Shown one piece after another: positions 23,790 through 44,293 of a stretch of 54,496 nt of DNA. Position 1 is the first letter of the stretch; each line of letters begins with the position of its first letter. A program made the translations under genes and the position numbers. The stretch lies in contig JAYYZV010000061.1 of the NCBI GenBank assembly GCA_036339975.1, positions 1-54,496 on the forward strand, in the 5' to 3' direction. The DNA comes from Pseudomonadota bacterium (GTDB lineage: Bacteria > Pseudomonadota > Alphaproteobacteria > MPNO01 > UBA830). The notes under the pieces are model-generated. The model saw nothing but the letters and a program-made list of their open reading frames with translations. It ran no database searches and was not told the DNA's origin.

Positions 23790-23792
23790 CGC

Positions 23793-29297: not shown

Positions 29298-30008
29298 ATG
29301 CCCCATGCATTTGAAATGCCGCAAAAATATATAGACAAAATCGTCGCGCGTATGGGTCGCTAACATTCTCAGGAGATTTTTGAGACGGAAAAAACGGCGC
29401 TAGTGGTCGTCGATATGCAGAATTATTTCATGGACGAAAGCCAGCAGGCAGGCTGCCCCGTCGGCCAGACCGTGGTCGGCAACGTCAACCGCATCGCGGA
29501 TACGGTCCGTCGAACCGGCGGTATTGTTATCTGGATCCAGAACATGGCGCCTGACGATACTCAGGAAACATGGAGTACGGCGCACGAACGGTATCTGCCC
29601 GAAAAAGCGAAACTCCGCGTAGAGTCTATGACACCCGGTGAGTGGCCATTCGAACTCTGGTCTGACCTCGACGTCAAGGACGATGACTTCCGCGTTATAA
29701 AGCGCCGGTACAGCGCCTTCATCCAAGGCTCATCCGACATCGAATTGATCCTCAAAGATAACGGGATCGAAAATATCCTCGTCTGTGGTGTAGCAACGAA
29801 TGTGTGTTGCGAGAGCACAGCACGTGACGCGATGATGCTGAACTATCGAGCGTTGATGGTCTCGGACGGTTGCGCCACGTCATCCGATGAGGAACATACG
29901 AATTCTCTAATTGCGTTTTACACGCATTTCGGTGACGTGCAGAATACTGACGAACTTTGCGCACGGCTTGAGGCCTCTGACAGGCAGAACTCAACAGCCG
30001 CTGAATAA
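29298..30008 (+). pseudogene. Isochorismatase-family cysteine hydrolase (nicotinamidase / amidase-like) interrupted by an in-frame TAA at 29361-29363
   Basis: The frame from the ATG at 29298 (GGGAG SD) reads MPHAFEMPQKYIDKIVARMGR*HSQEIFETEKTALVVVDMQNYF. The family's usual N-terminus therefore spans the stop. Catalytic Asp (VVVDMQ) and Cys (GVATNVCCESTARDA) are present downstream. The track ORF restarts at the GTG at 29403. Confidence 0.7.
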
Positions 30009-30036
30009 AACATAAGAAACTATAGGGAACAAAGAT

Positions 30037-31227
30037 ATGGCTGCCCCCGCCGCGCCGCAAACGCCGAAAGGCAAAACCGTCATCAGAAACATCGGCATGA
30101 TGCTTTCCGGCGCAATGGAAAACCCAATCCTTAACGCCGATAGTCTTATCGCAATAGATGGCAAAATCGACTCCTTCGGTAAGGAGAAGGATCTTGATAC
30201 TGATCAGGCGGACGTGAATATTGATGCACACGGAACCACATTGTGCCCCGGCCTGATCGACAGCCACGTTCATCCCGTTTTCGGCGACTGGACGCCTCGC
30301 CAAAACCAGCTTAACTGGATCGATTCATCGATGCATGGCGGCGTCACAACAATGATTTCTGCGGGTGAAGTCCATCTTCCCGGCCGGCCAAAAGATCCGA
30401 AAGGCGTTGTGGCCCTAGGTATTACCGCGCAACGCTGTTTTTCGGCCTTTCCCCCGGGTGGTGTAAAAGTTCACGCCGGCGCGCCGATCCTCGAAAAAGG
30501 TATGGTCGAGGAAGATTTCAAGGAAATGAGTGAGGCTGGCGTCAAGCTGCTGGGTGAAATTGGCCTCGGCGGCGTCAAAGCCGGCGACGAGGCAAAGAAG
30601 ATGGTCGACTGGGCCCGAAAATACGGTATCCAGTCAACGATCCATACCGGTGGTCCTTCCATCCCCGGTTCCGGTCTAATCGACAAGGACGTGGTTCTGG
30701 AAGCCGGTGCAGACATAATCGGTCACATTAATGGCGGCCACACATCGCTGCCGCTCGACCAGATTCGTTGCCTTTGTGAAGACTGTAGTGCGGGGATCGA
30801 AATCGTCCATAACGGCAATGAGAAAGCGGCACTATTCGCTCTGCGGACCGCCTTCGAATTGGATCAATCCGAAAGGGTCATTCTCGGTACAGACGGTCCA
30901 GCCGGATCTGGCGTACAGCCGCTCGGTATCATTCGCATGGTGTCAATGCTGTCGGCTCTGGGCGACATCCCTGCCGAAATCGCATTTTGTTTCGCCACCG
31001 GCAATACTGCGCGAATGCGCGACCTCGACTGCGGTCTGATAGAGAAAGGTCGCGCCGCGGATTTCGTGTTTCTAGACCGCGCACAGCACACGGCGGGCAA
31101 AGACTTGTTGGAGAGCGTCCAGATGGGCGACATTCCTGGTGTTGGGATGGTCGTCATTGACGGTCAGGTCGCGTCAGGTCGCAGCCGCAACACCCCGCCG
31201 GCGGACACTATTCCAGAACTGGTTTAA
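30037..31227 (+). CDS. Enamidase-like amidohydrolase (1,4,5,6-tetrahydro-6-oxonicotinate-type cyclic amide hydrolase)
   Basis: 396 aa. HxH metal motif GLIDSHVHP. The blocks HGGVTTMISAGEVHLPGRPKDPKG, IHTGGPSIPGS, GHINGG and the C-terminal SRNTPPA match my recollection of Eubacterium barkeri enamidase. Not verified by search. Confidence 0.65.
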   Translation: MAAPAAPQTPKGKTVIRNIGMMLSGAMENPILNADSLIAIDGKIDSFGKEKDLDTDQADVNIDAHGTTLCPGLIDSHVHPVFGDWTPRQNQLNWIDSSMHGGVTTMISAGEVHLPGRPKDPKGVVALGITAQRCFSAFPPGGVKVHAGAPILEKGMVEEDFKEMSEAGVKLLGEIGLGGVKAGDEAKKMVDWARKYGIQSTIHTGGPSIPGSGLIDKDVVLEAGADIIGHINGGHTSLPLDQIRCLCEDCSAGIEIVHNGNEKAALFALRTAFELDQSERVILGTDGPAGSGVQPLGIIRMVSMLSALGDIPAEIAFCFATGNTARMRDLDCGLIEKGRAADFVFLDRAQHTAGKDLLESVQMGDIPGVGMVVIDGQVASGRSRNTPPADTIPELV

Positions 31228-31321
31228 ATCATCTTCAGGTGTCGGTAGCCAACAACCCGTGCATGCCACCGGAAAGCAAAAATTTCTCGTCTCGTAAGGC
31301 TAATTGAACTTTCATCAGAAA

Positions 31322-31906
31322 TTATCGGAGCCCGTCTTCCCCGACCATCTCATCTGTCGTTAACCCGCCGACGCGAGGGAACGGTCGGCCAGAGTCGGTC
31401 ACCGATATTGCGACAAGAATTTCATTTGCCCGGGGAGCGTCAGCGAGACGAACTTCCATCCCATCGAAGTGGCTGCGCACGTAGGCGGCGTCCTTGTGGC
31501 CAAGCGGGACATCGATCGGCGTACCGGGCCCACCCAATTTTTTGACCGATGGAACCAAGGCCGCACCCTTCTCAACTTCCTTTCGCAGCGGTGCGCCTAA
31601 CTTCGGATGCAAGATAGCCGCAGCATGTTCCCATTCGCCGTTCTCACCGACGATTGCCGCCTTCCCATAGCTCTCTGCTTCTTCAGGTGTAATGCCCAAA
31701 GCATCGACGCACATTTTGCCAAGCACTTCACCCAGTTCGGCACCGATATCCATCAGCGCCGATAGGTCTTCCTCATATGTGCCGGCGAACGGGTTTTCGA
31801 TCACAGCCAGTGCCGCAGCCTTCCGCGTCGGCGGATTGACCTCTTTCCCGATATCCTGACGCGTTTCTTCAACAATCACCGATGTTTTGCGGATGTTGGC
31901 TGGCAT
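31322..31906 (-). CDS. 'Amino acid synthesis' family protein (PF06684/DUF1185), function unknown
   Basis: 194 aa from the ATG at 31906 (GGGGGG SD). Blocks IRK..V.EE, AVIENPFAG, YGKAAIVGENGEWEHAAA, VKKLGGPGTPIDVPLGHKDAAYVRSHFD. Paralog of 34493-35128. Confidence 0.7.
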   Translation of the reverse strand: MPANIRKTSVIVEETRQDIGKEVNPPTRKAAALAVIENPFAGTYEEDLSALMDIGAELGEVLGKMCVDALGITPEEAESYGKAAIVGENGEWEHAAAILHPKLGAPLRKEVEKGAALVPSVKKLGGPGTPIDVPLGHKDAAYVRSHFDGMEVRLADAPRANEILVAISVTDSGRPFPRVGGLTTDEMVGEDGLR

Positions 31907-31928
31907 TGCACCCCCCGTCATTACAATT

Positions 31929-31946
31929 TTGTTAGTATACATATGA
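31929..31946. promoter_or_regulatory. Box C: copy of an 18-bp quasi-palindromic box (TTGTnTGTnnACAnACAA)
   Basis: TTGTTAGTATACATATGA lies 23-40 nt upstream of the ATG at 31906, in the divergent region shared with the 32076 gene. It has 3 mismatches to the pattern. Confidence 0.4.
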
Positions 31947-32075
31947 TGTTTAAGCGGGCGAGATCCGAAGTCAATAGCTGTACCGCGCAACGAGACCTGC
32001 ATTTTTGATGGATTGCGCCTGCACCGTGCTCTGGTAAATTAGGAGAATTCTATCCAGATCAAAGAGCCTGAAGCT

Positions 32076-34430
32076 ATGCCCGACGACGCCGTAATAGATA
32101 CACTTAAATTCGGCATTGGACAGCCCGTCCTTCGGACAGAGGACCCCAAGCTGCTGACAGGTCGCGGAGAATTCACCGACGATTACAGCGCCGATGGGCA
32201 GGCCTACTGCGCCTTTTTTCGCTCGCCGGTCGCCCATGGAAGCATCATATCTATAGACACCTCTGCTGCGGAGGCGGCACCCGGCGTCATAGCAATTATT
32301 ACTGGTAAGGACCTTAGAGACGCGGGCGTGAAAGACATTCCTTGCCCGATCAGTGTCAAAAGCAGAGACGGCTCCGCCGCCGTTGTTCCACCGCGTCCGG
32401 CAATGGCCGTCGGGCAGGTAAAACACGTTGGCGATCCCGTGGCCGCGGTTATCGCGGAGACTTCTATACAAGCACGTGACGCGGCGGAGATGATCATACT
32501 CGATACCGAGAACCTGCCTTCGGTTTCGGATCCCGTGGCGGCAGAGAAAAATGGCGCGCCTCAGGTCTGGGAGGAAGCGCCGGGGAACACCTGTCTGGAT
32601 TTTCAATGCGGAGATAACGAAACAGTAGAGAAAGCCTTCGCCGATGCCGCGCACATCACCAAGATCGAGCTCACTAATACACGGGTGATCGTCAGTGCCA
32701 TGGAACCACGCGCGACGGTCGCTGAATATGATCGCGGAACTGAAAAATTCACGCTCCACGTCGGCACGCAGGGCGTCGCCGGGTATCGTGGTGCGATGTG
32801 TAATATGCTCGACATCGAACCAGATAAAATGCGGATTATCTCGAAGGAAGTGGGTGGCTCATTCGGCATGAAGGGCAGCGCATTCAATGAAGCGATCGTG
32901 GTTCTGCATGCCTCGCGAGTGCTCGGCCGGCCGGTAAAATGGACTGCCGATCGATCAGAGAGCTTTCTGTCCGATCACCATGGTCGAGCGATGACGTTCG
33001 AACTTGGCCTCGCACTCGACAAGGACGGGAACTTTCTGGCGCTCCGAGTTGATGGGGTCGGCGACATGGGCGCCTATCTGACTTCGATGGGACCTTGGCC
33101 GGCGACTATGGTGACGAGCCGTAACATCATCAGCGTCTATAAAACGCCAGCTATTTCATACAACGCTAAATGTATTTTTACGAACACTGTTCCCACAGGC
33201 CCCTACCGTGGGGCCGGCCGCCCAGAATCAAAATTCTTCATGGAGCGCCTAATCGACAAGGCGGCAGAGGAAATGGGCATCGACAGGGTTGAACTGCGGC
33301 GTCTGAATTTAATTAGTCCCGACATGCTACCCCACGAAACACCCATCGATTTGACATACGACTCCGGGGAATTCGAGACTATCATGGATTTGTGCCTCGA
33401 ACGCGCCGACTATGCCGGATACAATGCACGTAAGAAAGAATCGGAAACCGCCGGCATGATCCGGGGCTTCGGCGTCGCACCCTACTTGGAAACCACAGCA
33501 GGACCCGGCACAGAACTTGCCGACATCCGATTTGAGGATGACGGTACCGTTACGTTAGTTACCGGCAACAAGGATTTTGGTATGGGCCACGCGACACCCT
33601 TCGCACAGGTGTTGTCAACCAAACTTGGTATTCCGTTCGAGGCCATCAACCTCGTGCAGTACGATTCCGATGAGATGAGCACCGGCGCCGGCGGATCCGG
33701 CGGTTCACGATCCATGATCGCCGCCAGTGGCGCGATACTCGAATGCGCCGAGACCATCATTGAAAACGGAAAGAAACTCGCGGGTCACGTGCTGGAGGCA
33801 GCGGTCGAGGATATCGAATTCACTGATGGCGTGTTCACAGTCGTAGGGACAGACCGAAACATCGGAATAATGACGCTTTCACATAAGGCCCGCGAATTGG
33901 ATGGCGCGGGCGATTTACCAGCGAACCTATCGCACAAGGTTAACCACGACACGGCCCCAATCAGCTTCCCGAACGGATGTCACATAGCAGAGGTAGAGAT
34001 TGATCCAGATACCGGCGTGGTCGCCATTGATCGTTACACCGTGGTGGACGATTTCGGTGTGGTGGTAAACCCGCTGATCGTCGAGGGACAAGTCCATGGT
34101 GGCATCGCCCAGGGTATTGGCCAGGTTCTGGCCGAAGATACAATCTACGACGACGAAGGCCAGCTTATGACCGGAACGTATCTCGATTATCAATTACCAA
34201 GAGCCGACGATATCGCCCACATCAATTTCACAACACACGCGGTACCGTGCAAAACCAACCCTCTGGGCGTCAAGGGCTGCGGGGAAGCCGGAAATGGCGG
34301 ATCCTACCCTGTGATCTACAACGCTATTATGGACGCGCTTGACGGCAATGGGGGAAAAGAACTGGGAATACCAGCGACTCCTCACCGCATCTGGCAAGCG
34401 ATTAGGCAACGCGGATTGGGCGTAGGCTAA
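32076..34430 (+). CDS. Molybdopterin-binding large subunit of a xanthine-dehydrogenase-family hydroxylase (CoxL form-II-like), stand-alone
   Basis: 784 aa. N-terminal a/b-hammerhead start (IGQPVLRTEDPKLLTGRGEFTDDY). Active-site loop GPYRGAGRPE (the AYRGAGR-type of form II CoxL-like enzymes). No adjacent Fe-S or FAD subunit genes. Confidence 0.85.
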   Translation: MPDDAVIDTLKFGIGQPVLRTEDPKLLTGRGEFTDDYSADGQAYCAFFRSPVAHGSIISIDTSAAEAAPGVIAIITGKDLRDAGVKDIPCPISVKSRDGSAAVVPPRPAMAVGQVKHVGDPVAAVIAETSIQARDAAEMIILDTENLPSVSDPVAAEKNGAPQVWEEAPGNTCLDFQCGDNETVEKAFADAAHITKIELTNTRVIVSAMEPRATVAEYDRGTEKFTLHVGTQGVAGYRGAMCNMLDIEPDKMRIISKEVGGSFGMKGSAFNEAIVVLHASRVLGRPVKWTADRSESFLSDHHGRAMTFELGLALDKDGNFLALRVDGVGDMGAYLTSMGPWPATMVTSRNIISVYKTPAISYNAKCIFTNTVPTGPYRGAGRPESKFFMERLIDKAAEEMGIDRVELRRLNLISPDMLPHETPIDLTYDSGEFETIMDLCLERADYAGYNARKKESETAGMIRGFGVAPYLETTAGPGTELADIRFEDDGTVTLVTGNKDFGMGHATPFAQVLSTKLGIPFEAINLVQYDSDEMSTGAGGSGGSRSMIAASGAILECAETIIENGKKLAGHVLEAAVEDIEFTDGVFTVVGTDRNIGIMTLSHKARELDGAGDLPANLSHKVNHDTAPISFPNGCHIAEVEIDPDTGVVAIDRYTVVDDFGVVVNPLIVEGQVHGGIAQGIGQVLAEDTIYDDEGQLMTGTYLDYQLPRADDIAHINFTTHAVPCKTNPLGVKGCGEAGNGGSYPVIYNAIMDALDGNGGKELGIPATPHRIWQAIRQRGLGVG

Positions 34431-34436
34431 ATTAAA

Positions 34437-34469
34437 CCCCGCGGCACAAATGCCCCTCCGGTTTTTTTT
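34437..34469 (+). terminator. Probable rho-independent terminator
   Basis: Imperfect GC-rich hairpin (CCCCGCGGCA CAAA TGCCCCTCCGG) followed by T8 (34462-34469). Sits between convergent genes. Confidence 0.55.
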
Positions 34470-34492: not shown

Positions 34493-35128
34493 TCAGCGCA
34501 GTCCGTCTTCGCCAACAACATCCTCGTTTTTTAAGCCGGCCGACCGGCTATAAATCCGAGGACCATTAGACATCGACTGTATCCAGACGATTTCGTTCGC
34601 TCGCGGGGCATCATTGATAGAGCATACGACAGTATCAAAATGAGAGCGGACGTATGCAGCATTGGCGTGAGCGATCGGCACGTCGATAGTGCAACCGGGG
34701 CCTCCTACCTTCTTAGTAGACGGAACGATCGCTGCCGATTTTTGCATCAACTGTCGCATTCCATATCCGCCGGGCTCGTGCCACAACGCGGCGTGCTCCA
34801 ATTCGCCGTTTTCTCCAACGATGGCAGCCTTGCCATAGGCGACGATAGCATCCGCGCCACCCATTACCGCCATCAGTTTCTTGGACATTTCAATACCCAT
34901 CGGTTTGAGCTGCTCCATTAATGGCAGGATGTCCTCTACATATTTTCCGGCATAAGGATTGTGCGTGACGGCCGCGATGTAGCCCTTCAGTTGCGGACGT
35001 TCTGCCGGTGGACCAAATTCGTGCAAAACCTCCTCGACATGCATCACAAACTTTCGGACCTTGACCAAATCTCCGAAATCTCCGTTGGTCGTCGTTTCCA
35101 CTGCGATTCTTCCATCATCCATTATCAT
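34493..35128 (-). CDS. 'Amino acid synthesis' family protein (PF06684/DUF1185), function unknown
   Basis: 211 aa. Blocks VRKFVMHVEE, AVTHNPYAG, YGKAAIVGENGELEHAAL, TKKVGGPGCTIDVPIAHANAAYVRSHFD. Its start overlaps the stop of the upstream UPF0280 gene (ATGATAATGGATGA). Confidence 0.7.
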   Translation of the reverse strand: MIMDDGRIAVETTTNGDFGDLVKVRKFVMHVEEVLHEFGPPAERPQLKGYIAAVTHNPYAGKYVEDILPLMEQLKPMGIEMSKKLMAVMGGADAIVAYGKAAIVGENGELEHAALWHEPGGYGMRQLMQKSAAIVPSTKKVGGPGCTIDVPIAHANAAYVRSHFDTVVCSINDAPRANEIVWIQSMSNGPRIYSRSAGLKNEDVVGEDGLR

Positions 35129-37537: not shown

Positions 37538-40284
37538 TATTTACTTCCCCTTTGAGCAAGGATCGCGGCTCGAACCCGATCCGGCGTAGCGGGTGCCTGT
37601 TTCATATGCACGCCAGTGGCATGATAGATTGCCCCGAATATGGCGGGCGGCGTTGGAATCAGAGCCGGCTCACCTATACCCTTAGCGCCGTACGGGCCCG
37701 TCGGTTCTGGGTCTTCAATCAGAAATACATCGATCGGCGGCACGTCACCGAAGGTTGGCATCAGATAATCGTGAAGGTTCTCGGTAAGGCCCGGGATGTA
37801 TTCCTCCATTAGGGCGAGACCGAGACCCTGCGCCACTCCACCATGTATCTGCCCTTCGACCTGCATCGGGTTGATTGCAGCGCCTACATCGTGTGCGGCC
37901 CAAACGTGCAGCACTTTTACTGTGCCAAGCTCGGTATCAACTTCAACCTCGGCGACCTGGGCCCCAAACCCATATGTACCGTAGGGGTTTCCCTGCCCCA
38001 TTTCGTCCAGCGGCGTGGCCGGGGGATCGAATGTCGCCTCGCCTAAAAGTACATTGCCATCATGTTTGTCGGCGGGAAGAACTGTCAGGTCAATCTCGCG
38101 GACCGCGGCGTCGTCTGTAACAGTAAGCTTCCCTTCACCAAACTCGAAGGTCGCATCGTCCCCGGCATTCGCCATGCGCAGTATCTGGCGGCGCAGATCC
38201 TCTCCGGCTTCCATGGCCGCACGGCCGGACACATACGCCTGTCGCGACGCCGAGCTTTTGCCCGCATCGGCCGTCAGATCCGTATCTCCCCAGACCAGAT
38301 TAACCCGGTCCATGTGGATGCCAAGCGCATCGGCCACGACCTGAACCATCGTCGTGTTAGTACCTTGGCCAATGTCCTGCGCCCCAGAATATAGGGTAAC
38401 GGTTCCATCAGAAGCTATACCGATCTGCATGGTTGAAGGGTTCGAGAGAGAGGTATTACCGCAGCCATACCACATGCAGCCTACGCCGACGCCACGGCGT
38501 TTGGCACCATGGGTCTCAGCGTTGAATTTCTCTGCCGCTACCCGGGCCCTTTTCCAAGGGGCCCGAAGCGCCTCAAGACACTGATCAAGTCCAGCGGAAT
38601 ATTCCAGCACCTGTCCCGTTGCTGTTTCCTGGCCTTTTCGGATGGCATTGCGGAGCCGAAAATCCAGCGGATCCATACCTATCGCCTCAGCCATGCGGTC
38701 CATTAGGTTATCATGTGCGATCGCGGCCTGTGGAATTCCAAACCCACGGAAAGCGCCGGCGGGCGTGCCATTCGTGAAAATACCGCGCGCCTTGGCCTCG
38801 ACGTTGGGTACGAAATACGGGCCGGTGGCATGCACCGGGACCCGGTCCTTTACCGTCAACCCCCAAGAGACATAAGCGCCTGTGTCAAAATCGCCGTCAA
38901 CCTCATAAGCAACCAGATCTCCATCCTTGGTACATCCATAACGCGCGGTGATTCGAGACGGGTGCCGCTTAGTGGACGCCGACATAGACTCGATCCGGTT
39001 CCACGTGCAACGGACCGGCTTATTCAAAATCCAGGCAGCAAGGCCGATTACCGGGTGGACGCCGAGGTCCAACTTCCCGCCGAAACCGCCGCCACACGCT
39101 GTAGGGATCACACGAACCGATTCATTGGGCAGCCCCAATATGTTGGCAACCTCGTCACGATCCATATAAGGGGCTTGGGTCGAAACCGTGATTTCCAGTC
39201 GGTCGCCGACACGCCGCGCCCACCCGGCTTCTGGCTCGATATAGCCGTGCTCTACAAATCCGGTCCGATAGGAATCCTCAATCACCACATCCGCGGTTTT
39301 CATCGCCGCAGCGGCGTCCCCTTTCTTCACGTACCCCTCAGCCATGACGTTGCCCGGATAGCCCTCGTGAATCCGATGGGCATCTTCAGCTAGTGCTGCA
39401 TCGAAGCCGTAAATATCGTCGCGTTCCTGATAGAATATCGGCAGGTCGTCGTCCCGAATACCGAAGACGGTCTCGTAATCGCCGACCAGCGCGACCACAT
39501 TTTCGCCTTTGAATCTAACTTCACCGTCAGCGAAGGCGGGCTGGTCCTTGATATTTGGATACACGCCGTAGCCATTCAGACCGGGTATGTCGGCTGCTGT
39601 CAGGATCCGTTCAAGACCTGACCATTCATCATACAACGGCTGAAAATCACCCAGCGTGAACGTCGCGCTCGCATGTGGGGAGCGTACTGCCCTTGCCCAT
39701 AAAGCATCGCTCGGCGCCTGATCAGCGCCATATTTCTCTGTCCCATCGACCTTCTGGATACCGTCGGTTTTCAGCGCACGGGCTCCCATGGCGTCGCCAA
39801 CATTTGGATACTGGAACGACTGTCCATTCGGCTGCACGACGTGCTTCACCGCATCAACGATATTGCGATAGCCGGTGCAGCGGCAAAGAACGCCGCCCAT
39901 TGCGTCCATAATCTGTTTTTCGTTTGGCGTCTCATTGCGTTTGAAGAGGTCTACCGCCGCCATCAGCATGCCGGGGGTGCAGATACCGCACTGCGCCGCG
40001 CCGTATTCGTGAAATGCCCGCTGCAAGTCGGTAAGCCGCCCGTCCTGACCAGCGAGGCCCTCTACAGTAGTTACGTCCCGCCCCTCAACTTGCGCTAAGG
40101 GCACGAGACACGAACATACCTGTTCTCCGTCCAAAAGGACCGTGCAGGCACCACAATCGCCTGCATCACAACCGACTTTCGTGCCGGTGTAGCCGAGATC
40201 GTCACGCAACACATTGGCAAGCCGACAGACCGGATCGGCTGCGGTGACAGCCGATTTACCGTTGAGATTAAATGAAATAGACAT
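37537..40284 (-). CDS. Xanthine-dehydrogenase-family hydroxylase, fused [2Fe-2S] and molybdopterin-binding subunit (nicotinate-dehydrogenase-like)
   Basis: 915 aa. N-terminal two-cluster ferredoxin part (GCDAGDCGACTV, CGICTPG, CRCTGY). Mo domain with an XDH-type loop GAFRGFGIPQ. Confidence 0.85.
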   Translation of the reverse strand: MSISFNLNGKSAVTAADPVCRLANVLRDDLGYTGTKVGCDAGDCGACTVLLDGEQVCSCLVPLAQVEGRDVTTVEGLAGQDGRLTDLQRAFHEYGAAQCGICTPGMLMAAVDLFKRNETPNEKQIMDAMGGVLCRCTGYRNIVDAVKHVVQPNGQSFQYPNVGDAMGARALKTDGIQKVDGTEKYGADQAPSDALWARAVRSPHASATFTLGDFQPLYDEWSGLERILTAADIPGLNGYGVYPNIKDQPAFADGEVRFKGENVVALVGDYETVFGIRDDDLPIFYQERDDIYGFDAALAEDAHRIHEGYPGNVMAEGYVKKGDAAAAMKTADVVIEDSYRTGFVEHGYIEPEAGWARRVGDRLEITVSTQAPYMDRDEVANILGLPNESVRVIPTACGGGFGGKLDLGVHPVIGLAAWILNKPVRCTWNRIESMSASTKRHPSRITARYGCTKDGDLVAYEVDGDFDTGAYVSWGLTVKDRVPVHATGPYFVPNVEAKARGIFTNGTPAGAFRGFGIPQAAIAHDNLMDRMAEAIGMDPLDFRLRNAIRKGQETATGQVLEYSAGLDQCLEALRAPWKRARVAAEKFNAETHGAKRRGVGVGCMWYGCGNTSLSNPSTMQIGIASDGTVTLYSGAQDIGQGTNTTMVQVVADALGIHMDRVNLVWGDTDLTADAGKSSASRQAYVSGRAAMEAGEDLRRQILRMANAGDDATFEFGEGKLTVTDDAAVREIDLTVLPADKHDGNVLLGEATFDPPATPLDEMGQGNPYGTYGFGAQVAEVEVDTELGTVKVLHVWAAHDVGAAINPMQVEGQIHGGVAQGLGLALMEEYIPGLTENLHDYLMPTFGDVPPIDVFLIEDPEPTGPYGAKGIGEPALIPTPPAIFGAIYHATGVHMKQAPATPDRVRAAILAQRGSK

Positions 40285-40286
40285 AT

Positions 40287-41123
40287 TTACTCCGTCAGTT
40301 CGGCAAGCGCACGCCGGACAAGCGTCAGCGCCGCGTCTCGGCGGTAATCAGCGGAGCCGCGTACATCCCCGATAGGGCTAAGCGGTAACAGATGATCCTC
40401 GGACACGAGATTGACCAAACCTGCATCGGCGGGTTTACCAGCAAGCAAAGTCTCAAGAGACGGAAGGCGCGTCGCCACCTCTGAACATGAACCAACGGCG
40501 ATACGGCATCGACCGACAGTGCCATCTGCCGCCTTTTCAAGGACTGCGGACACCATGACGATCGAAATAACCAGATATTTTCGGGCTCCGAGTTTTAAGA
40601 ACGTGCTTTTGGCACCATTATTACATTTCGGTATTAACAAACCGACAACTAGTTCATCACCCTTTCGCGCAGTCCGGCGATTTCCAAGAACGAAATCAGA
40701 GATAGGTATATCCCGTTGGCCGGAAACCGAGGCCAGCCGAACAAGCGCATCCAGCGCGATCAGTCCGGGGGCACCATCGGCGGCCGGCGACGCATTGCAA
40801 ACATTTCCGACGATTGTCCCAGCGTTTTGGATCTGCATGCCGCCAACCTCCCGGGCCGCCAATTTCATGACCCGAAACCAGTCAGGCAGATCCGCGCGGA
40901 TCAGATCAGTCCACGTTGCACCCGCGCCTAAAAAATAGTGATCACCCCTCTCTTCGATCGAACCTAAGCCCTCAATGCCTGTGACGTCGAGTACGTCTTC
41001 GTCTATTGGTTTACCGACCCGTGCCGGATAAAAATCCGTCCCGCCGGCGACAATAGTCCGTCCCCCTACAGATAGCGCGTCTAATGCCTCGGAAAGTGCC
41101 GTAGGTCTGAGATAGGATGACAT
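40287..41123 (-). CDS. FAD-binding subunit of molybdenum hydroxylase (CoxM/XdhB-like)
   Basis: 278 aa. FAD-binding PCMH-type N-terminus (IVAGGTDFYP). C-terminal CO-dehydrogenase flavoprotein domain (IGDVRGSADYRR). Stop lies 2 nt before the next ATG. Confidence 0.85.
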   Translation of the reverse strand: MSSYLRPTALSEALDALSVGGRTIVAGGTDFYPARVGKPIDEDVLDVTGIEGLGSIEERGDHYFLGAGATWTDLIRADLPDWFRVMKLAAREVGGMQIQNAGTIVGNVCNASPAADGAPGLIALDALVRLASVSGQRDIPISDFVLGNRRTARKGDELVVGLLIPKCNNGAKSTFLKLGARKYLVISIVMVSAVLEKAADGTVGRCRIAVGSCSEVATRLPSLETLLAGKPADAGLVNLVSEDHLLPLSPIGDVRGSADYRRDAALTLVRRALAELTE

Positions 41124-41150
41124 TTAAAACTTGCGCTCCGGTTAACAACA

Positions 41151-41168
41151 TTGTTTGTGTACATACAA
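41151..41168. promoter_or_regulatory. Box A: perfect copy of the 18-bp box TTGTnTGTnnACAnACAA
   Basis: TTGTTTGTGTACATACAA lies 28-45 nt upstream of the ATG at 41123. It is a 7+7 inverted repeat and is preceded by a second small palindrome AACAA-CA-TTGTT (41144-41155). Confidence 0.5.
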
Positions 41169-41354
41169 CTATTCGTTAGTCGGGTGGAGGTGTCAAGCGG
41201 CGTCAAATTCCTTTATCAAATACCGTTATTTAGCGGATGAAAAACAAACCCTGCATGCTATAACATGCCACCGGTGATCATGTGAAAAAGAAGCGTTTTG
41301 GCTGTATCTTAATCCACCGGCAACGGCTTGACGGAGAAGACCCCCCCGCCTAAC

Positions 41355-41372
41355 TTGTTTGTACACGTATAA
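41355..41372. promoter_or_regulatory. Box B: copy of the 18-bp box, overlapping a TATAAT hexamer
   Basis: TTGTTTGTACACGTATAA has 2 mismatches to the pattern and lies 18-35 nt upstream of the korA ATG. TATAAT is at 41368-41373. Confidence 0.45.
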
Positions 41373-41389
41373 TAATTTGGACAGTTTTC

Positions 41390-43255
41390 ATGGCAACAAA
41401 TGTCGCCCCCTCCGATGACGGAGAGCGCAAGGCTCTAGACTCTGTGGTGATCCGTTTCGCCGGTGACTCCGGGGACGGTATGCAGCTTACTGGCACACAA
41501 TTTACTCAGTCGACAGCCCTAATGGGTAACGATCTCGCGACTTTCCCGGATTTTCCGGCAGAAATCCGTGCCCCGGCCGGCACCACGTTCGGCGTCAGCG
41601 CGTTTCAGATCAACTTCGCATCCTATGACATCCAAACCCCAGGCGACGATCCAGACGTTCTAGTTGCTATGAACCCCGCAGCATTAAAAGTCCATCTGAA
41701 GGACGTTCCTAAAGGCGGGACAATTATTCTTAACGTCGATGCGTTCACAGACCGCAACGTCGCGCGCGCCGGATATGAGGAAAGCCCTCTCGACGACGGC
41801 ACCTTGGACAACCATGTCGTCATCGCGATCGAGATTAATAAACTGACAAACGCTGCCGTCGCCGATTGCGACGTGACTTCCAAGGAAGCTACACGCTGCA
41901 AAAATTTCTGGGCCCTCGGGCTGATGTGCTGGATGTATAACCGAGACCGCCAGCCGACCGTCGAGTGGGTCGAACAACGGTTCGGAAAACTGCCGAATAT
42001 AGCAGCGGCAAATATAGCGGCTCTCAATGCAGGCCACGCCTATGGAGAAACCGTCGAGCTACCATCTGGTGTCGAAGCCTATGTCGTGCCGAGAGCAGAT
42101 GTTCAACCCGGCACCTATCGTGCCGTCACCGGCACTGAAGCAGTCGCCTGGGGCCTTGTCGCAGGCGCCAAAAAAGCGGGACTTGAACTTTTCCTTGGTT
42201 CCTATCCGATTACGCCAGCCTCCGCCCTGCTGCACACCCTGACCGGCCTAAAACCTCACGGCGTTACCACATTCCAGGCGGAAGACGAAATAGCCGCGGT
42301 GTGCTCGGCGATCGGCGCAGCATATGCAGGTTCGCTGGGCGTTACGTCATCCTCCGGACCAGGTATTGCGCTTAAGACCGAAGCTATCGGGCTTGCTTTG
42401 GTCACCGAACTACCGCTGGTAGTTGTCAATGTCCAGCGCGGCGGGCCCTCAACCGGTCTTCCGACGAAAACCGAACAATCTGACCTATTCCAGGCAGTTT
42501 ATGGCCGTAACGCGGATACACCGCTGCCGGTAGTTGCGTCGCGTACCGCCGGTGACTGCTTTGAAACAGCGATCGAGGCGGTCCGTCTAGCCACCAAATA
42601 CATGACACCGGTCATCCTCCTGACCGATGGATTCCTCGCCAATTCGGCGGAGCCTTGGGAAATTCCGGACGCCGATGCCATTGCCGATTTTCCGGTCGAA
42701 TTCCGTTCCAACCCCGACGGCTTCCATCCATACCTTCGCGACGAAAAAACGCTGGCGCGAAACTGGGCTATTCCCGGCACTCCAGGGCTGATGCACCGCA
42801 TCGGCGGAATCGAAAAAGACTATGACAGTGGTCATATTTCCTATGATAGTGACAACCACCACAGAATGACGAAAGTTCGCGCCGCCAAGATCGACGGCAT
42901 TGCCGACGACATACCGTCTCAGGAGGTCGCCACCGGCCAAGACACCGGTAAGCTCGCGGTTGTCGGCTGGGGATCGACCTTTGGGGCAATTAACCAAGCG
43001 GTCCGGCGCTGTGTTGCTGACGGGATAAGCGTATCGCACATCCACCTGAGGCATATACACCCCTTCCCCAAAAACCTCGGGGACCTGCTTTCGGGTTTCG
43101 ATCAGGTCATGGTGCCAGAAATGAACAACGGACAACTCGTCCATGTACTGCGCGACAAGTACCTCGTCGACGCTGAAAGCATTACTCAAATAACGGGTCA
43201 ACCCTTCAAGGTTTCGACCCTTGAAAGCGAGATCCGCTCGCGGGTTGGAGGATAA
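41390..43255 (+). CDS. korA: 2-oxoglutarate/2-oxoacid:ferredoxin oxidoreductase, alpha subunit
   Basis: 621 aa. N-terminal VVIRFAGDSGDGMQLTG and the size typical of the two-subunit KorAB type. Followed 3 nt later by the ThDP-binding beta subunit. Confidence 0.85.
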   Translation: MATNVAPSDDGERKALDSVVIRFAGDSGDGMQLTGTQFTQSTALMGNDLATFPDFPAEIRAPAGTTFGVSAFQINFASYDIQTPGDDPDVLVAMNPAALKVHLKDVPKGGTIILNVDAFTDRNVARAGYEESPLDDGTLDNHVVIAIEINKLTNAAVADCDVTSKEATRCKNFWALGLMCWMYNRDRQPTVEWVEQRFGKLPNIAAANIAALNAGHAYGETVELPSGVEAYVVPRADVQPGTYRAVTGTEAVAWGLVAGAKKAGLELFLGSYPITPASALLHTLTGLKPHGVTTFQAEDEIAAVCSAIGAAYAGSLGVTSSSGPGIALKTEAIGLALVTELPLVVVNVQRGGPSTGLPTKTEQSDLFQAVYGRNADTPLPVVASRTAGDCFETAIEAVRLATKYMTPVILLTDGFLANSAEPWEIPDADAIADFPVEFRSNPDGFHPYLRDEKTLARNWAIPGTPGLMHRIGGIEKDYDSGHISYDSDNHHRMTKVRAAKIDGIADDIPSQEVATGQDTGKLAVVGWGSTFGAINQAVRRCVADGISVSHIHLRHIHPFPKNLGDLLSGFDQVMVPEMNNGQLVHVLRDKYLVDAESITQITGQPFKVSTLESEIRSRVGG

Positions 43256-43258
43256 GCC

Positions 43259-44293
43259 ATGAACGTCGAGACCCCTGTCGAAGCCTTAAAGCCAAACGAC
43301 TACGCTTCCGACCAGGAAGTCCGCTGGTGTCCCGGATGCGGCGATTATGCTATTGTCAAGGGTGTACACCGCACACTTGCCGAACTGCAAATTCCGCTTG
43401 AAAAGCTCGTGTTTTTCTCGGGCATTGGCTGCGCGGCACGGTTTCCCTACTACATGGCGTCGTATGGTTTTCACACTATACATGGACGCGCGCCGGCACT
43501 GGCCACCGGCGCGAAGCTCGCTAACCCTGACCTCGACATCTGGGTCGTGATGGGCGACGGCGACGCTTTATCGATCGGCGGCAACCACACGATGCACGCT
43601 ATCCGCCGTAACGTCGATCTAAACCTGTTGCTGTTCAATAACGAAATATATGGTCTGACCAAGGGTCAATATTCACCGACAAGTCAACTCGGCACCCGAT
43701 CACCCTCTACACCGCAGGGTTCAGTCGACGCACCGCTGACGCCGCTTACCCTTGCCCTCGGGGCGGGTGCAAGGTTCGTTGCCCGCACCTTCGATACTAA
43801 CCAGAAACAGATGCCAGGCGTCTTAAAAGCCGCGCACGCTCACAAGGGCGCCTCTCTCGTCGAGATTATCCAGAACTGCATCGTTTATAACGACGGCGCG
43901 TTTGACGGATGGACTGACAAGAAAGTGGTGGGCGACAATTCAATCACGGTCGAGCATTCCAAGCCGTTGATTTTTGGCGCTGACAGCAACAAAGGTATCG
44001 CTCGCGCCGAGGACGGTTTCGGCATCAGAGTTGTCACAATTGGTGAAGACGGTATCACCGAAGAGGATATCCTTGTTCATGACGAGACCAACAAGATGCT
44101 CGCCATGATGCTCGCTGATATGAAGCAGCCGGAATTCCCAGTCGCGCTCGGCGTACTCTATAATAATCCGAGTAAAGCTTATGACGAGGCGGTCCATGAA
44201 CAGCTCGCCGCCGTCAAGGAAGCCAACCCGGCCGGCACCATCAACGAGATGCTCCGCAAAGGGCGGACCTGGACCGTATCTGAAGGAGCTTAG
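43259..44293 (+). CDS. korB: 2-oxoglutarate/2-oxoacid:ferredoxin oxidoreductase, beta subunit (ThDP-binding)
   Basis: 344 aa. WCPGCGDY Cys motif. ThDP motif GDGDALSIGGNH...FNNEIYGLTKGQ. Confidence 0.85.
   Translation: MNVETPVEALKPNDYASDQEVRWCPGCGDYAIVKGVHRTLAELQIPLEKLVFFSGIGCAARFPYYMASYGFHTIHGRAPALATGAKLANPDLDIWVVMGDGDALSIGGNHTMHAIRRNVDLNLLLFNNEIYGLTKGQYSPTSQLGTRSPSTPQGSVDAPLTPLTLALGAGARFVARTFDTNQKQMPGVLKAAHAHKGASLVEIIQNCIVYNDGAFDGWTDKKVVGDNSITVEHSKPLIFGADSNKGIARAEDGFGIRVVTIGEDGITEEDILVHDETNKMLAMMLADMKQPEFPVALGVLYNNPSKAYDEAVHEQLAAVKEANPAGTINEMLRKGRTWTVSEGA

What the first reader, a model, noticed from the sequence alone, without database searches (positions are those of the whole stretch)
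29298..44293. Reductive (fermentation-type) nicotinate-like N-heterocycle pathway with its own low-potential electron source
Seen: four kinds of genes sit within 15 kb.
- An enamidase-like amidohydrolase (30037-31227).
- A putative 6-hydroxynicotinate-reductase-like gene (36005-37537). It is coupled to an FAD subunit and a fused FeS-Mo hydroxylase by 2-nt and TAATG junctions.
- A second Mo hydroxylase.
- KorAB 2-oxoacid:ferredoxin oxidoreductase, transcribed divergently from the hydroxylase operon.

Established: in Eubacterium barkeri, nicotinate is hydroxylated, then ring-reduced by a ferredoxin-dependent reductase and opened by enamidase. Azorhizobium uses a related tetrahydro-6-oxonicotinate route, and homologous clusters were noted in a few Proteobacteria.

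Inference: this window encodes such a hybrid route, and KorAB supplies the reduced ferredoxin. The substrate need not be nicotinate itself, because there are two hydroxylases. The steps after ring opening are not covered by recognisable genes.
Basis: partly seen in the sequence, partly recalled or inferred. Interest (0 to 1): 0.8.

Follow-up and report, generated by a model that had tools for sequence, protein, structure and literature searches.

The report
Nicotinate ring-reduction cluster with co-regulated KorAB
A marine alphaproteobacterium carries the known reduce-then-open gene set for breaking down nicotinate (vitamin B3), and next to it, behind the same predicted control site, a 2-oxoacid:ferredoxin oxidoreductase that could supply the low-energy electrons this chemistry needs in an oxygen-breathing cell.

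Summary
Ena (30037-31227) matches E. barkeri enamidase over its full length (PDB 2VUN, E=3e-107). Hnr (36005-37537) is 40% identical (E=5e-100) to the Hnr of an E. barkeri-type cluster. The FAD subunit and the fused FeS-Mo protein correspond to NdhF and NdhS+L+M. KorAB is divergent from this operon.

This upper pathway (nicotinate, 6-hydroxynicotinate, THON, ring opening) is already described in Proteobacteria. I found Hnr homologues in at least 587 species genomes.

KorAB is the less ordinary part.
- KorAB lies within 10 kb of Hnr in only 8 of 80 species sampled, but in three different gene orders.
- All 15 contexts examined for the window's KorA clade are Hnr-linked.
- KorA homologues outside that clade are not linked, apart from two loci with a co-directional korAB-fprA-ndh-hnr row.
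- An 18-bp palindrome occurs three times in the window (0.03 expected). It sits in front of korA, ndhF and a DUF1185 gene. In relatives it also sits next to the cluster's MarR regulator.

KorAB therefore probably belongs to the nicotinate regulon and probably supplies reductant. This is inferred, not shown. No ferredoxin gene lies nearby. The proteobacterial Hnr lacks the N-terminal two-cluster ferredoxin domain of the E. barkeri-type enzyme.

Verdict: a new variant of a known pathway, of moderate interest.

The parts
26476..28352 (-). TRAP transporter membrane parts DctM (26476-27747) and DctQ (27780-28352). Candidate uptake system. No DctP gene was found in the window.
   Evidence: Pfam DctM E=1e-107 and DctQ E=2e-25. 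The same SDR|DctQ-DctM arrangement occurs in L001 and L005. Most other Hnr clusters carry an ABC transporter instead.
28517..29251 (+). Short-chain dehydrogenase (244 aa from the probable start; the ORF opens at 28379). Candidate enzyme for 2-formylglutarate or its semialdehyde.
   Evidence: Pfam adh_short_C2 E=1e-51. The start at 28517 matches the L001 orthologue. It is conserved beside the hydrolase and Ena in L001, L005, L007 and L014.
29298..30008 (+). Isochorismatase-family cysteine hydrolase (amidase-like), interrupted by an in-frame TAA at 29361-29363. An uninterrupted frame resumes at GTG 29403.
   Evidence: Pfam Isochorismatase E=3.5e-38. The L001 orthologue has Glu at codon 22 where the window has a stop. 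PDB relatives are generic amidases such as RutB and pyrazinamidase.
30037..31227 (+). Enamidase (Ena). It hydrolyses 1,4,5,6-tetrahydro-6-oxonicotinate (THON) to 2-formylglutarate and ammonia.
   Evidence: PDB 2VUN E=3e-107, full length. 45.5% identical to the Ena of L084.
31322..31906 (-). DUF1185 / AA_synth protein 1 (194 aa from the probable start; the ORF opens at 32002). Function unknown.
   Evidence: Pfam PF06684 E=2e-72. 49% identical to the DUF1185 gene that follows ena in L084. PDB 2QTP, an uncharacterised protein, E=3e-93.
31929..31946 (.). Operator-like palindrome O3 (TTGTTAGTATACATATGA). It lies 22 nt upstream of the DUF1185-1 start, in the divergent region shared with the second molybdenum gene.
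   Evidence: The pattern search gave 3 matches in the window against 0.03 expected. L016 has a site at the equivalent place.
32076..34430 (+). Second molybdenum-hydroxylase large subunit (MoL2), with no FeS or FAD partner of its own. Possibly an aldehyde oxidoreductase.
   Evidence: Pfam Ald_Xan_dh_C, MoCoBD_1 and MoCoBD_2. Best NCBIfam match is glyceraldehyde dehydrogenase alpha, 543 bits, below its cutoff of 790. Only 28-29% identical to NdhL/M. Orthologues above 50% identity occur only in KorAB-linked loci of types A and B.
34493..35128 (-). DUF1185 / AA_synth protein 2, the last gene of the ndh-hnr operon.
   Evidence: Pfam PF06684 E=3e-67. 42% identical to the DUF1185 protein of L084.
35115..35999 (-). 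ApbE-like protein (UPF0280, PF27030). Proposed maturation factor for the flavin of Hnr.
   Evidence: NCBIfam NF003322, 350 bits against a cutoff of 290. PF27030 is recorded on the orthologues. 32% identical to the gene that follows hnr in L084. It lies directly after hnr in 55 of 67 loci. The start is 5 nt after the hnr stop.
36005..37537 (-). 6-hydroxynicotinate reductase homologue (Hnr). It keeps one Cys4 motif (Cys28, 31, 35, 45) and lacks the N-terminal 2x[4Fe-4S] domain.
   Evidence: 40% identity over 467 aa, E=5e-100, to the Hnr of L084. The Fer4 dicluster domain is found only in the L084 protein. The four Cys are invariant; they are listed as C27, C30, C34 and C44 because that query omitted codon 1.
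37537..40284 (-). Nicotinate dehydrogenase FeS and molybdenum parts fused in one chain (NdhS+NdhL+NdhM).
   Evidence: 44%, 40% and 41% identical to NdhS, NdhL and NdhM of L084, in that order. Tyr606 aligns with Tyr13 of NdhM. PMC5746545 reports that this Tyr is modelled to bind the ring nitrogen of nicotinate.
40287..41123 (-). Nicotinate dehydrogenase FAD subunit (NdhF).
   Evidence: Pfam FAD_binding_5 and CO_deh_flav_C. 35% identical to NdhF of L084.
41151..41168 (.). Operator-like palindrome O1 (TTGTTTGTGTACATACAA). It lies 27 nt upstream of the ndhF ATG and abuts the predicted -10 hexamer.
   Evidence: One mismatch to the consensus. Predicted promoter: -35 at 41196-41191 and -10 at 41173-41168. 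The site is conserved in relatives.
41355..41372 (.). Operator-like palindrome O2 (TTGTTTGTACACGTATAA). It lies 17 nt upstream of the korA ATG and overlaps a TATAAT hexamer.
   Evidence: A site on the korA side is also present in L001, L002, L004, L014 and L082. It is absent upstream of the unlinked korA genes, apart from 2 weak matches in 79 loci.
41390..44293 (+). KorA (41390-43255) and KorB (43259-44293), a two-subunit 2-oxoacid:ferredoxin oxidoreductase. Proposed low-potential electron source for Hnr.
   Evidence: TIGR03710, 647 bits against a cutoff of 483. TIGR02177, 258.1 bits against a cutoff of 261.9. PDB 6N2N chains A and B, E=1.6e-76 and 3.5e-59, with the CPGC and GIGC cysteine motifs aligned. 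Linkage to hnr.
44347..44898 (-). 183-aa protein with no family match. It stays beside korB in the window's closest lineage. Whether it belongs to the system is uncertain.
   Evidence: No Pfam or NCBIfam match. It lies next to korB in L001-L004, including L003, where the genes beyond it differ.

Best explanation
The window carries the upper pathway for aerobic nicotinate breakdown through a reduced ring intermediate.

1. NdhF and the fused NdhSLM protein hydroxylate nicotinate to 6-hydroxynicotinate.
2. Hnr reduces the ring to 1,4,5,6-tetrahydro-6-oxonicotinate (THON). Its flavin is probably installed by the ApbE-like protein encoded next to it.
3. Enamidase opens the ring to 2-formylglutarate and ammonia.
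4. The SDR, the two DUF1185 proteins and the orphan molybdenum subunit probably process 2-formylglutarate towards glutarate.

The divergent korAB pair belongs to the same regulon. A NicR/BpsR-like MarR repressor, encoded outside the window, would bind the 18-bp palindromes in front of korA, ndhF and DUF1185-1. KorAB oxidises a 2-oxoacid, most likely 2-oxoglutarate. It passes low-potential electrons to Hnr, either through a ferredoxin encoded elsewhere or directly.

Shown here: homology, synteny, conserved linkage and shared motifs. Inferred: co-regulation, the KorAB substrate, the electron path, and every step after ring opening.
For: Homology to the characterised system:
- Ena matches PDB 2VUN at E=3e-107.
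- Hnr is 40% identical, E=5e-100, to the Hnr of L084. The Ena of L084 is 97% identical to the E. barkeri enamidase.
- NdhF, S, L and M are 35-44% identical to their L084 counterparts, and the nicotinate-binding Tyr is kept.
- The ApbE-like and DUF1185 neighbours are shared with L084.

Literature: the proteobacterial Ndh-Hnr-Ena cluster is tied to growth on nicotinate and 6-hydroxynicotinate (PMC3511419).

KorAB linkage:
- Type A is korBA divergent from ndhF-ndhSLM-hnr. It occurs in the window, L001-L004 and L016.
- L165-L167 have the type A layout plus fprA and marR after korB.
- Type B is fprA-korB-korA divergent directly from hnr. It occurs in L007, L008, L014, L082 and L085.
- Type C is one co-directional row, korA-korB-fprA-ndhF-ndhSLM-hnr-apbE-hyuAB, with 17-63 nt gaps. 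It occurs in L024 and L027.
- The KorA proteins of types A and B form one clade, and all 15 contexts examined for it are Hnr-linked. The type C KorA proteins fall among unlinked KorA proteins, which suggests a second recruitment.
- L003 keeps korAB beside the operon although the genes beyond it differ.

Shared control site:
- The palindrome gives 3 matches in the window against 0.03 expected, all in cluster promoter regions.
- The same motif lies in the korA|ndhF or korA|hnr spacer of relatives. It also lies between marR and ndhF in clusters without KorAB. Among the 79 unlinked korA loci only two weak 3-mismatch matches occur, one of them (L113) about 225 nt upstream of korA.
- The cluster's MarR resembles PDB 6PCP and 6PCO at about E=1e-28.

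Need for a donor: the proteobacterial Hnr lacks the two-cluster ferredoxin domain of the E. barkeri-type enzyme.
Against: - 72 of 80 species loci with Hnr have no KorAB within 10 kb. KorAB is therefore not a general requirement of the pathway.
- KorA homologues at 55-69% identity are common without Hnr. The enzyme type is a general-purpose one.
- No ferredoxin gene lies in the window or in the KorAB-linked loci.
- The window lacks both the cluster-type MarR and the FprA that accompanies KorAB in most relatives.
- The O2 site has 3 mismatches to the consensus.
- L003 shows no palindrome at the thresholds used.
- The trees are neighbour-joining without support values.
- Nothing was measured: no expression data, no enzyme assay and no growth data for this lineage, which is known only from metagenome-assembled genomes.
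Confidence: 0.6

Rival explanations
1. KorAB is linked to the cluster as a carbon-flow enzyme. It would oxidise a 2-oxoacid produced downstream of ring opening, for example 2-oxoglutarate formed from glutarate. Feeding electrons to Hnr would be at most a side effect.
For: KorAB matches 2-oxoglutarate-type enzymes. PMC3511419 reports that the Azorhizobium route runs through glutarate. The linkage and motif evidence fits any role within the regulon.
Against: Type B relatives carry an acyl-CoA (glutaryl-CoA-like) dehydrogenase and a CoA-transferase in the cluster. That points to a glutaryl-CoA route, which produces no 2-oxoacid. No glutarate hydroxylase or 2-hydroxyglutarate oxidase gene was seen in the window or in the loci. 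The regular pairing of KorAB with an FprA-type ferredoxin reductase suggests electron handling rather than carbon flow.
Confidence: 0.15
2. KorAB is a housekeeping enzyme that merely lies beside the nicotinate cluster in one lineage. There is no functional coupling.
For: Most Hnr clusters lack KorAB. Related KorAB and KorAB-FprA pairs occur widely without Hnr. In the window, korB is followed by housekeeping genes (Nfu-type scaffold, IspG).
Against: Adjacency persists in three gene orders, with KorA diverging down to 63-70% identity. All 15 contexts examined for the window's KorA clade are Hnr-linked. In L003 the flanking genes differ, yet korAB stays. The palindrome in front of korA is the one used elsewhere in the cluster and beside the cluster's MarR.
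Confidence: 0.12
3. Hnr receives the electrons released by the nicotinate hydroxylase itself, making a redox-neutral hydroxylation-reduction couple. In relatives the path could be NADPH and FprA. KorAB would only prime or top up the system.
For: hnr is translationally coupled to the hydroxylase genes through the TAATG overlap. An FeS-Mo orthologue of at least 45% identity lies within 10 kb of hnr in 69 of 80 loci. Most clusters have no KorAB. FprA-type NADPH:ferredoxin reductases sit in the layouts with fprA: types B and C and L165-L167.
Against: The window has no FprA. E. barkeri Hnr needs reduced ferredoxin (my own knowledge; the paper is not held). Electrons from the hydroxylase FAD are probably not reducing enough. 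Type B clusters have KorAB next to hnr but no ndhF or ndhSLM within 10 kb.
Confidence: 0.2
4. The cluster acts on a different pyridine carboxylate or another N-heterocycle. The second molybdenum subunit would carry out the first hydroxylation.
For: A second molybdenum large subunit lies inside the cluster. No NCBIfam equivalog model is reached by either molybdenum protein. No growth data exist for this lineage.
Against: The operon-encoded hydroxylase is the Ndh orthologue and keeps the nicotinate-binding Tyr. Ena and Hnr are close to the nicotinate enzymes. The regulator family is NicR/BpsR-like. MoL2 has no FeS or FAD partner, and its best family match is an aldehyde dehydrogenase.
Confidence: 0.12

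Closest known systems
Eubacterium barkeri nicotinate fermentation cluster (Alhapel et al. 2006), represented here by contig L084, whose Ena is 97% identical to PDB 2VUN
   Same: Ndh (F, S, L, M), Hnr, the ApbE-like gene after hnr, Ena and DUF1185 all have counterparts at 32-49% identity. The chemistry is the same up to ring opening. By analogy, a 2-oxoacid:ferredoxin oxidoreductase supplies reduced ferredoxin. In E. barkeri that would be pyruvate:ferredoxin oxidoreductase acting on the pathway's end product (my own knowledge).
   Different: NdhS, L and M are fused into one chain. Hnr lacks the N-terminal 2x[4Fe-4S] domain. The window has no Hgd, Hmd, Mgm, Mii, DmdAB or Dml. The regulator type is MarR rather than LysR. 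An oxidoreductase gene lies inside the regulon. The host is an aerobic-type alphaproteobacterium.
Azorhizobium caulinodans / Bradyrhizobiaceae nicotinate cluster (Kitts et al. 1989, 1992; Shettigar et al. 2012, PMC3511419)
   Same: [quoted passage not shown] The window's Hnr is 64-68% identical to those of Bosea and Methylobacterium.
   Different: The window has TRAP parts instead of the ABC transporter. It also has korAB under the cluster's operator, an extra orphan molybdenum subunit, and no regulator gene in the cluster. A dedicated electron source has not been described for those clusters in the papers I could read.
Two-subunit 2-oxoglutarate:ferredoxin oxidoreductase KorAB (Magnetococcus marinus, PDB 6N2N; the mycobacterial KOR type)
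   Same: The same domain layout and the same TPP and [4Fe-4S] motifs.
   Different: In this clade the genes sit next to a catabolic operon, behind its operator, and not in a central-metabolism context.
Pseudomonas putida / Bordetella nic clusters with the MarR-type repressor NicR/BpsR
   Same: A MarR-family regulator related to PDB 6PCP and 6PCO. I recall these entries as BpsR, which responds to 6-hydroxynicotinate. Control is through a palindromic operator.
   Different: Those clusters use the oxidative route through 2,5-dihydroxypyridine and maleamate (NicC, NicX, NicD, NicF) and have no Hnr or Ena.

Membership tests
Hnr (6-hydroxynicotinate reductase, EC 1.3.7.1) family | Full-length sequence similarity to the E. 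barkeri enzyme | tested here: met
   40% identity over 467 aa, E=5e-100, to the Hnr of the E. barkeri-type contig L084. The identity of L084 rests on its Ena being 97% identical to 2VUN and on the complete E. barkeri gene order.
Hnr (6-hydroxynicotinate reductase, EC 1.3.7.1) family | N-terminal 2x[4Fe-4S] ferredoxin-like domain, the presumed electron entry point | tested here: not met
   Fer4 dicluster motifs occupy residues 3-56 of the L084 protein only. The window protein begins its similarity at the following CxxCxxxC...C motif. The domain is missing from all 14 proteobacterial sequences aligned.
Hnr (6-hydroxynicotinate reductase, EC 1.3.7.1) family | Ferredoxin-dependent reduction of 6-hydroxynicotinate to THON | not testable with these tools
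   This needs an enzyme assay.
Hnr (6-hydroxynicotinate reductase, EC 1.3.7.1) family | ApbE-like gene directly downstream | tested here: met
   True of the window (start 5 nt after the hnr stop), of L084 and of 55 of 67 species loci.
Enamidase (Ena) | Full-length similarity to the solved E. barkeri enzyme | tested here: met
   PDB 2VUN, E=3e-107, residues 12-391 against 2-381. The next best PDB hit has E=1e-4.
E. barkeri-type nicotinate dehydrogenase (NdhFSLM) | FAD, 2x[2Fe-2S] and molybdenum parts homologous to NdhF, S, L and M, with the substrate-binding Tyr13M | tested here: met
   35%, 44%, 40% and 41% identity respectively. Tyr606 aligns with Tyr13M. The selenium dependence of the E. barkeri enzyme cannot be tested here.
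Complete E. barkeri fermentation pathway | Lower-pathway genes Hgd, Hmd, Mgm, Mii, DmdAB and Dml | tested here: not met
   All are present on L084. No counterpart lies among the annotated genes of the window.
Proteobacterial aerobic THON-type nicotinate cluster (PMC3511419) | [quoted passage not shown] | tested here: met
   All are present. The unknowns are most probably the DUF1185 and/or ApbE-like genes; I could not see that paper's figure.
Proteobacterial aerobic THON-type nicotinate cluster (PMC3511419) | Putative nicotinate ABC transporter in the cluster | tested here: not met
   The window has TRAP DctQ and DctM instead. ABC genes occur in 35 of 80 loci.
Proteobacterial aerobic THON-type nicotinate cluster (PMC3511419) | Growth on nicotinate or 6-hydroxynicotinate | not testable with these tools
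   The closest relatives are metagenome-assembled genomes.
Two-subunit 2-oxoacid:ferredoxin oxidoreductase (KorAB) | Alpha subunit reaches the curated family score | tested here: met
   TIGR03710, 647.3 bits against a cutoff of 482.75.
Two-subunit 2-oxoacid:ferredoxin oxidoreductase (KorAB) | Beta subunit with the TPP-binding domain and the cysteines of the [4Fe-4S] cluster | tested here: met
   TPP_enzyme_C, E=3e-29. The CPGC and GIGC cysteines and a later Cys align with 6N2N chain B. TIGR02177 scores 258.1 bits, just under its cutoff of 261.9.
Two-subunit 2-oxoacid:ferredoxin oxidoreductase (KorAB) | Specificity for 2-oxoglutarate | not tested
   Only source annotations and the best solved relative point that way. 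I did not check the substrate-binding residues.
NicR/BpsR-type MarR regulon | Palindromic operator in front of the regulated operons | tested here: met
   Three sites in the window against 0.03 expected. The same motif lies next to marR in relatives. Binding was not tested.
NicR/BpsR-type MarR regulon | Regulator gene in or beside the cluster | tested here: not met
   No homologue of the cluster-type MarR lies in the 54.5-kb window. A distant MarR at 49271-49813 is not similar to it.

The most novel reading that the evidence does not exclude
A clade of aerobic marine and soil Alphaproteobacteria has placed a 2-oxoacid:ferredoxin oxidoreductase under the nicotinate repressor. In most members an FprA-type ferredoxin reductase accompanies it. 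The module serves as a dedicated low-potential power supply for a dearomatising pyridine-ring reduction. The Hnr in these organisms has lost its own ferredoxin domain, so it may take electrons directly from KorB. In many related clusters an ATP-dependent hydantoinase/oxoprolinase pair replaces enamidase as the ring-opening enzyme.
Probability: 0.4. Interest if true: 0.7.

Novelty: new variant of a known kind. Interest (0 to 1): 0.55.

Why it matters
Aerobic bacteria use a ring reduction that in E. barkeri depends on reduced ferredoxin. The papers I could read do not explain how they do this.

A korAB pair, usually joined by fprA, is linked to hnr and shares its control motif. That gives a concrete hypothesis that can be tested in vitro. 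It also gives an example of a central-metabolism oxidoreductase recruited into a catabolic regulon.

The clade is common in ocean metagenome-assembled genomes (Tara samples, "MarineAlpha11"). The finding therefore bears on the marine turnover of vitamin B3 and related pyridines.

The survey produced two further leads: an ApbE-like partner of Hnr conserved from Firmicutes to Proteobacteria, and an exclusive Ena / HyuAB alternation.

Tried and rejected
- Hnr has no Pfam or NCBIfam family above threshold; only a weak sub-threshold Pfam hit (GCV_T_C, E=0.0036) appeared at a relaxed cut-off. It has no solved relative.
- AlphaFold2 on a 14-sequence alignment of Hnr gave pLDDT 42 and pTM 0.31. I ran no fold search and drew nothing from the model.
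- Searches for ferredoxin motifs in six frames found no stand-alone ferredoxin in the window or in the KorAB-linked loci. Only scattered ones occur in other loci.
- The cluster-type MarR was searched for in the window and not found.
- The repeat finder reported no inverted repeat in the promoter regions. The palindrome was seen by eye and then confirmed by pattern search with shuffles.
- The window's own Hnr is not on record in the contig index.
- Alhapel 2006 and Kitts 1989 are not held. Statements about Hnr cofactors, ferredoxin dependence and the source of reduced ferredoxin in E. barkeri rest on my memory.
- My simple ORF caller produced antisense artefacts in high-GC loci. All counts therefore use tblastn maps instead.
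- Rejected: that MoL2 is a second nicotinate hydroxylase (28-29% identity to Ndh, no FeS or FAD partner).
- Rejected: that the Nfu-type scaffold and IspG genes belong to the system. They are absent from L003 and from the type B and C loci.

Full report
**Gene map**

ORF listing and family scans give the following map.
- DctM and DctQ, 26476-28352 (-).
- An SDR, probable start 28517 (+).
- An isochorismatase-family hydrolase, 29298-30008 (+).
- Ena, 30037-31227 (+).
- DUF1185 protein 1, 31322-31906 (-).
- A molybdenum-hydroxylase large subunit with no partner subunits, MoL2, 32076-34430 (+).
- A five-gene minus-strand operon running from 41123 down to 34493: FAD subunit, fused FeS-Mo protein, Hnr, ApbE-like protein, DUF1185 protein 2.
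- Divergent from that operon, korA and korB, 41390-44293 (+).
- Beyond korB: a 183-aa protein with no family match, an Nfu-type scaffold gene and ispG.

There is a 2-nt spacer between the FAD gene and the FeS-Mo gene, and a TAATG overlap between the FeS-Mo gene and hnr. The ApbE-like gene starts 5 nt after the hnr stop.

**Identity of the key genes**

Ena matches the solved E. barkeri enamidase over its full length (2VUN, E=3e-107). The next best PDB hit is about 100 orders of magnitude weaker.

Hnr has no Pfam, NCBIfam or PDB relative. To compare it directly with the characterised enzyme I searched with the 2VUN sequence. The top hit was a protein 97% identical to it. I then fetched the contig that encodes it, L084.

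L084 has the whole E. barkeri gene order:
- LysR regulator, Hnr, ApbE-like protein, Hgd;
- NdhF, NdhS, NdhL, NdhM;
- a transporter, Ena, DUF1185;
- Mgm, Mii, a MutL-like protein, Dml, Hmd, DmdA, DmdB.

Identities of the window proteins to their L084 counterparts:

| Window protein | L084 counterpart | Identity |
|---|---|---|
| Hnr | Hnr | 40% over 467 aa, E=5e-100 |
| ApbE-like | ApbE-like | 32% |
| DUF1185-1 / DUF1185-2 | DUF1185 | 49% / 42% |
| FAD subunit | NdhF | 35% |
| Fused FeS-Mo protein | NdhS / NdhL / NdhM, in order | 44% / 40% / 41% |
| MoL2 | NdhL / NdhM | 28-29% |

Tyr606 of the fused protein aligns with Tyr13 of NdhM. PMC5746545 reports that this residue is modelled to bind the ring nitrogen of nicotinate. 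No gene of the lower fermentation pathway is in the window.

**One structural difference**

The E. barkeri-type Hnr begins with a two-cluster [4Fe-4S] ferredoxin domain at residues 3-56. The window protein and all 13 aligned proteobacterial homologues lack it. They keep only the next Cys4 motif, Cys28, 31, 35 and 45. The built-in electron entry module is therefore missing.

**What is already known**

PMC3511419 describes an Ndh-Hnr-Ena cluster with an ABC transporter and two conserved unknown proteins. It is found in Azorhizobium, Bradyrhizobium, Rhodopseudomonas and strain SG-6C. The paper ties it to growth on nicotinate and to the route through THON and glutarate.

The core of the finding is therefore a known kind of system. 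The nearest relatives of the window are ocean metagenome-assembled genomes. L004 comes from a Tara sample and its Hnr is 93% identical. A KorA 92% identical to the window's is labelled "MarineAlpha11".

**Is KorAB part of it? Linkage**

tblastn maps of the 80 species loci show KorAB within 10 kb of hnr in only 8. It occurs in three gene orders.
- Type A: korBA divergent from ndhF-ndhSLM-hnr. Found in the window, L001-L004 and L016.
- Type B: fprA-korB-korA divergent directly from hnr, with no ndh genes in between. Found in L007, L008, L014, L082 and L085.
- Type C: a co-directional row, korA-korB-fprA-ndhF-ndhSLM-hnr-apbE-hyuA-hyuB, with 17-63 nt gaps. Found in L024 and L027.

In L003 the genes beyond korB differ from those in the window, yet korAB stays beside the operon.

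As a reverse test I fetched 80 metagenome loci carrying KorA homologues at 55-71% identity. Only the closest, L085, has hnr beside it. I then looked up three KorA proteins at 78-79% identity from large assemblies. All three show the type A layout, with fprA and marR after korB.

In a neighbour-joining tree the KorA proteins of types A and B form one clade. Together with L165-L167, all 15 contexts examined for that clade are Hnr-linked. The type C KorA proteins sit among unlinked KorAB-FprA modules. That suggests KorAB was recruited at least twice, though the tree has no support values. The FprA-like protein matches M. tuberculosis FprA and adrenodoxin reductase at about E=1e-77.

**Is KorAB part of it? 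Shared control motif**

The korA|ndhF spacer contains two copies of an 18-bp palindrome, consensus TTGTWTGTATACAWACAA. A third copy lies in front of DUF1185-1. That makes three matches in the window against 0.03 expected from shuffles.
- O1 (41151-41168) abuts the predicted -10 of the ndhF promoter.
- O2 (41355-41372) overlaps a TATAAT hexamer and ends 17 nt before the korA ATG.
- O3 (31929-31946) lies 22 nt upstream of the DUF1185-1 start.

The same motif recurs in relatives:
- in the korA|ndhF or korA|hnr spacer;
- upstream of hyuA or ena;
- upstream of marR in types B and A-with-fprA;
- between marR and ndhF in clusters that have no KorAB.

Among the 79 unlinked korA loci only two weak 3-mismatch matches occur, one of them (L113) about 225 nt upstream of korA. 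The cluster's MarR resembles PDB 6PCP and 6PCO at about E=1e-28. I recall these as Bordetella BpsR/NicR, which responds to 6-hydroxynicotinate. The window itself has no such regulator gene.

**Mechanism proposed**

- Shown: homology, synteny, conserved linkage and a shared motif.
- Inferred: a NicR-like repressor controls ndh-hnr, DUF1185-1 (and possibly MoL2) and korAB together. KorAB oxidises 2-oxoglutarate and delivers low-potential electrons to Hnr.
- Undecided: the carrier. No ferredoxin gene lies in the window or in the linked loci. Either a ferredoxin encoded elsewhere is used, or the [4Fe-4S] cluster of KorB passes electrons directly to the Cys4 cluster of Hnr.

As I recall, E. barkeri Hnr holds a covalently bound flavin, one [2Fe-2S] cluster and two [4Fe-4S] clusters, and uses reduced ferredoxin. 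That paper is not held. If this is right, two readings follow.
- The ApbE-like neighbour is the flavin-attachment factor. It follows hnr directly in 55 of 67 loci.
- The Cys4 motif that remains in the window protein is the [2Fe-2S] site.

In relatives, FprA could recycle NADPH from the hydroxylase to ferredoxin. The window lacks FprA, so KorAB would be its only local electron source.

**Limits**

- Most Hnr clusters have no KorAB, so KorAB is an accessory of one clade and not a pathway requirement.
- KorAB-type enzymes are common elsewhere.
- O2 is a weak match to the consensus.
- There is no experiment of any kind.

**Steps after ring opening**

The conserved candidates are the SDR, the two DUF1185 proteins and MoL2. 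The solved DUF1185 structures are uncharacterised. The best family match of MoL2 is an aldehyde dehydrogenase. Its orthologues occur only in type A and B loci.

Type B clusters add an Amidohydro_2 protein, an acyl-CoA (glutaryl-CoA-like) dehydrogenase, a family III CoA-transferase and a flavin-reductase-like protein. This agrees with the glutarate route reported for Azorhizobium.

**Other results**

- Ena and a hydantoinase/oxoprolinase pair (HyuAB) never occur together: 17 loci have Ena only, 27 have HyuAB only, and none has both. Among the 41 loci with full flanks the counts are 13, 18 and 0.
- HyuAB occupies the Ena position in L002 and L004, whose Hnr is 92-93% identical to the window's. 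It is a candidate ATP-dependent enzyme that opens the THON lactam ring.
- The window's isochorismatase-family gene has a premature TAA at codon 22.

**Verdict**

The pathway core is already known. The KorAB module, usually with FprA, linked to hnr and sharing its control motif, is a new variant that I did not find in the literature held here.

Noticed in passing
window 29298-30008 (stop codon at 29361-29363): The isochorismatase-family hydrolase between the SDR and Ena has an in-frame TAA at codon 22, where the 236-aa orthologue in L001 has Glu. It may be a pseudogene, a sequencing error, or a restart at GTG 29403 that would remove the first beta-strand.
   Followed up: partly
L002 17659-19660; L004 16520-20283; L024 12318-16050; 27 of the 80 loci L004-L083: A hydantoinase/oxoprolinase pair (HyuA, HyuB) and enamidase are mutually exclusive in Hnr clusters (27 against 17 loci, none with both). 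HyuAB occupies the Ena site in the window's closest relatives. It may be an ATP-dependent enzyme that opens the THON lactam ring in place of enamidase.
   Followed up: partly
L084 2824-3672 and 10703-11284: The E. barkeri-type cluster also has an ApbE-like gene right after hnr and a DUF1185 gene right after ena. These two pairings are therefore conserved from Firmicutes to Proteobacteria. Neither protein has an assigned role.
   Followed up: partly
L007, L008, L014, L082, L024, L027, L165-L167; also L087, L091, L092, L098, L114-L116, L127: An FprA/adrenodoxin-reductase-type NADPH:ferredoxin reductase usually follows korB, both in Hnr-linked loci and in unlinked ones. The window and L003 lack it and have the 183-aa unknown protein beside korB instead.
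   Followed up: partly
window 5010-16288: A TPP-dependent enzyme is followed by three tandem UbiD-family decarboxylase paralogues (549, 575 and 554 aa). Next come a TetR regulator and a TctC / TctA-TctB tricarboxylate transporter. This looks like a separate catabolic or (de)carboxylation locus.
   Followed up: no
window 16412-25448: This stretch holds an Amidohydro_2 protein that is 50% identical to the gene heading type B Hnr clusters. It also holds a citrate-synthase-like fragment, a family III CoA-transferase, a Rieske/VanA-like oxygenase, an AMP-dependent ligase, three EamA exporters and a second SDR. It may be further catabolic genes related to the downstream route.
   Followed up: partly
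L167 4673-8908: The recorded gene call merges the FeS-Mo hydroxylase and Hnr into one 1411-aa product. In the L167 sequence a TGA lies just before the hnr ATG, in a frame I did not resolve. The merge may be a real fusion, a frameshift or a calling artefact.
   Followed up: partly
window 48029-52923: An acyl-CoA-dehydrogenase-like gene, a distant MarR regulator (49271-49813), a TauD/TfdA dioxygenase and a flavin monooxygenase-like gene. The MarR is unrelated in sequence to the cluster-type MarR.
   Followed up: no
window 26476-28352: TRAP transporter DctQ and DctM are present, but none of the ORFs I annotated in the window has a DctP (PF03480) hit; I ran no dedicated DctP search.
   Followed up: no
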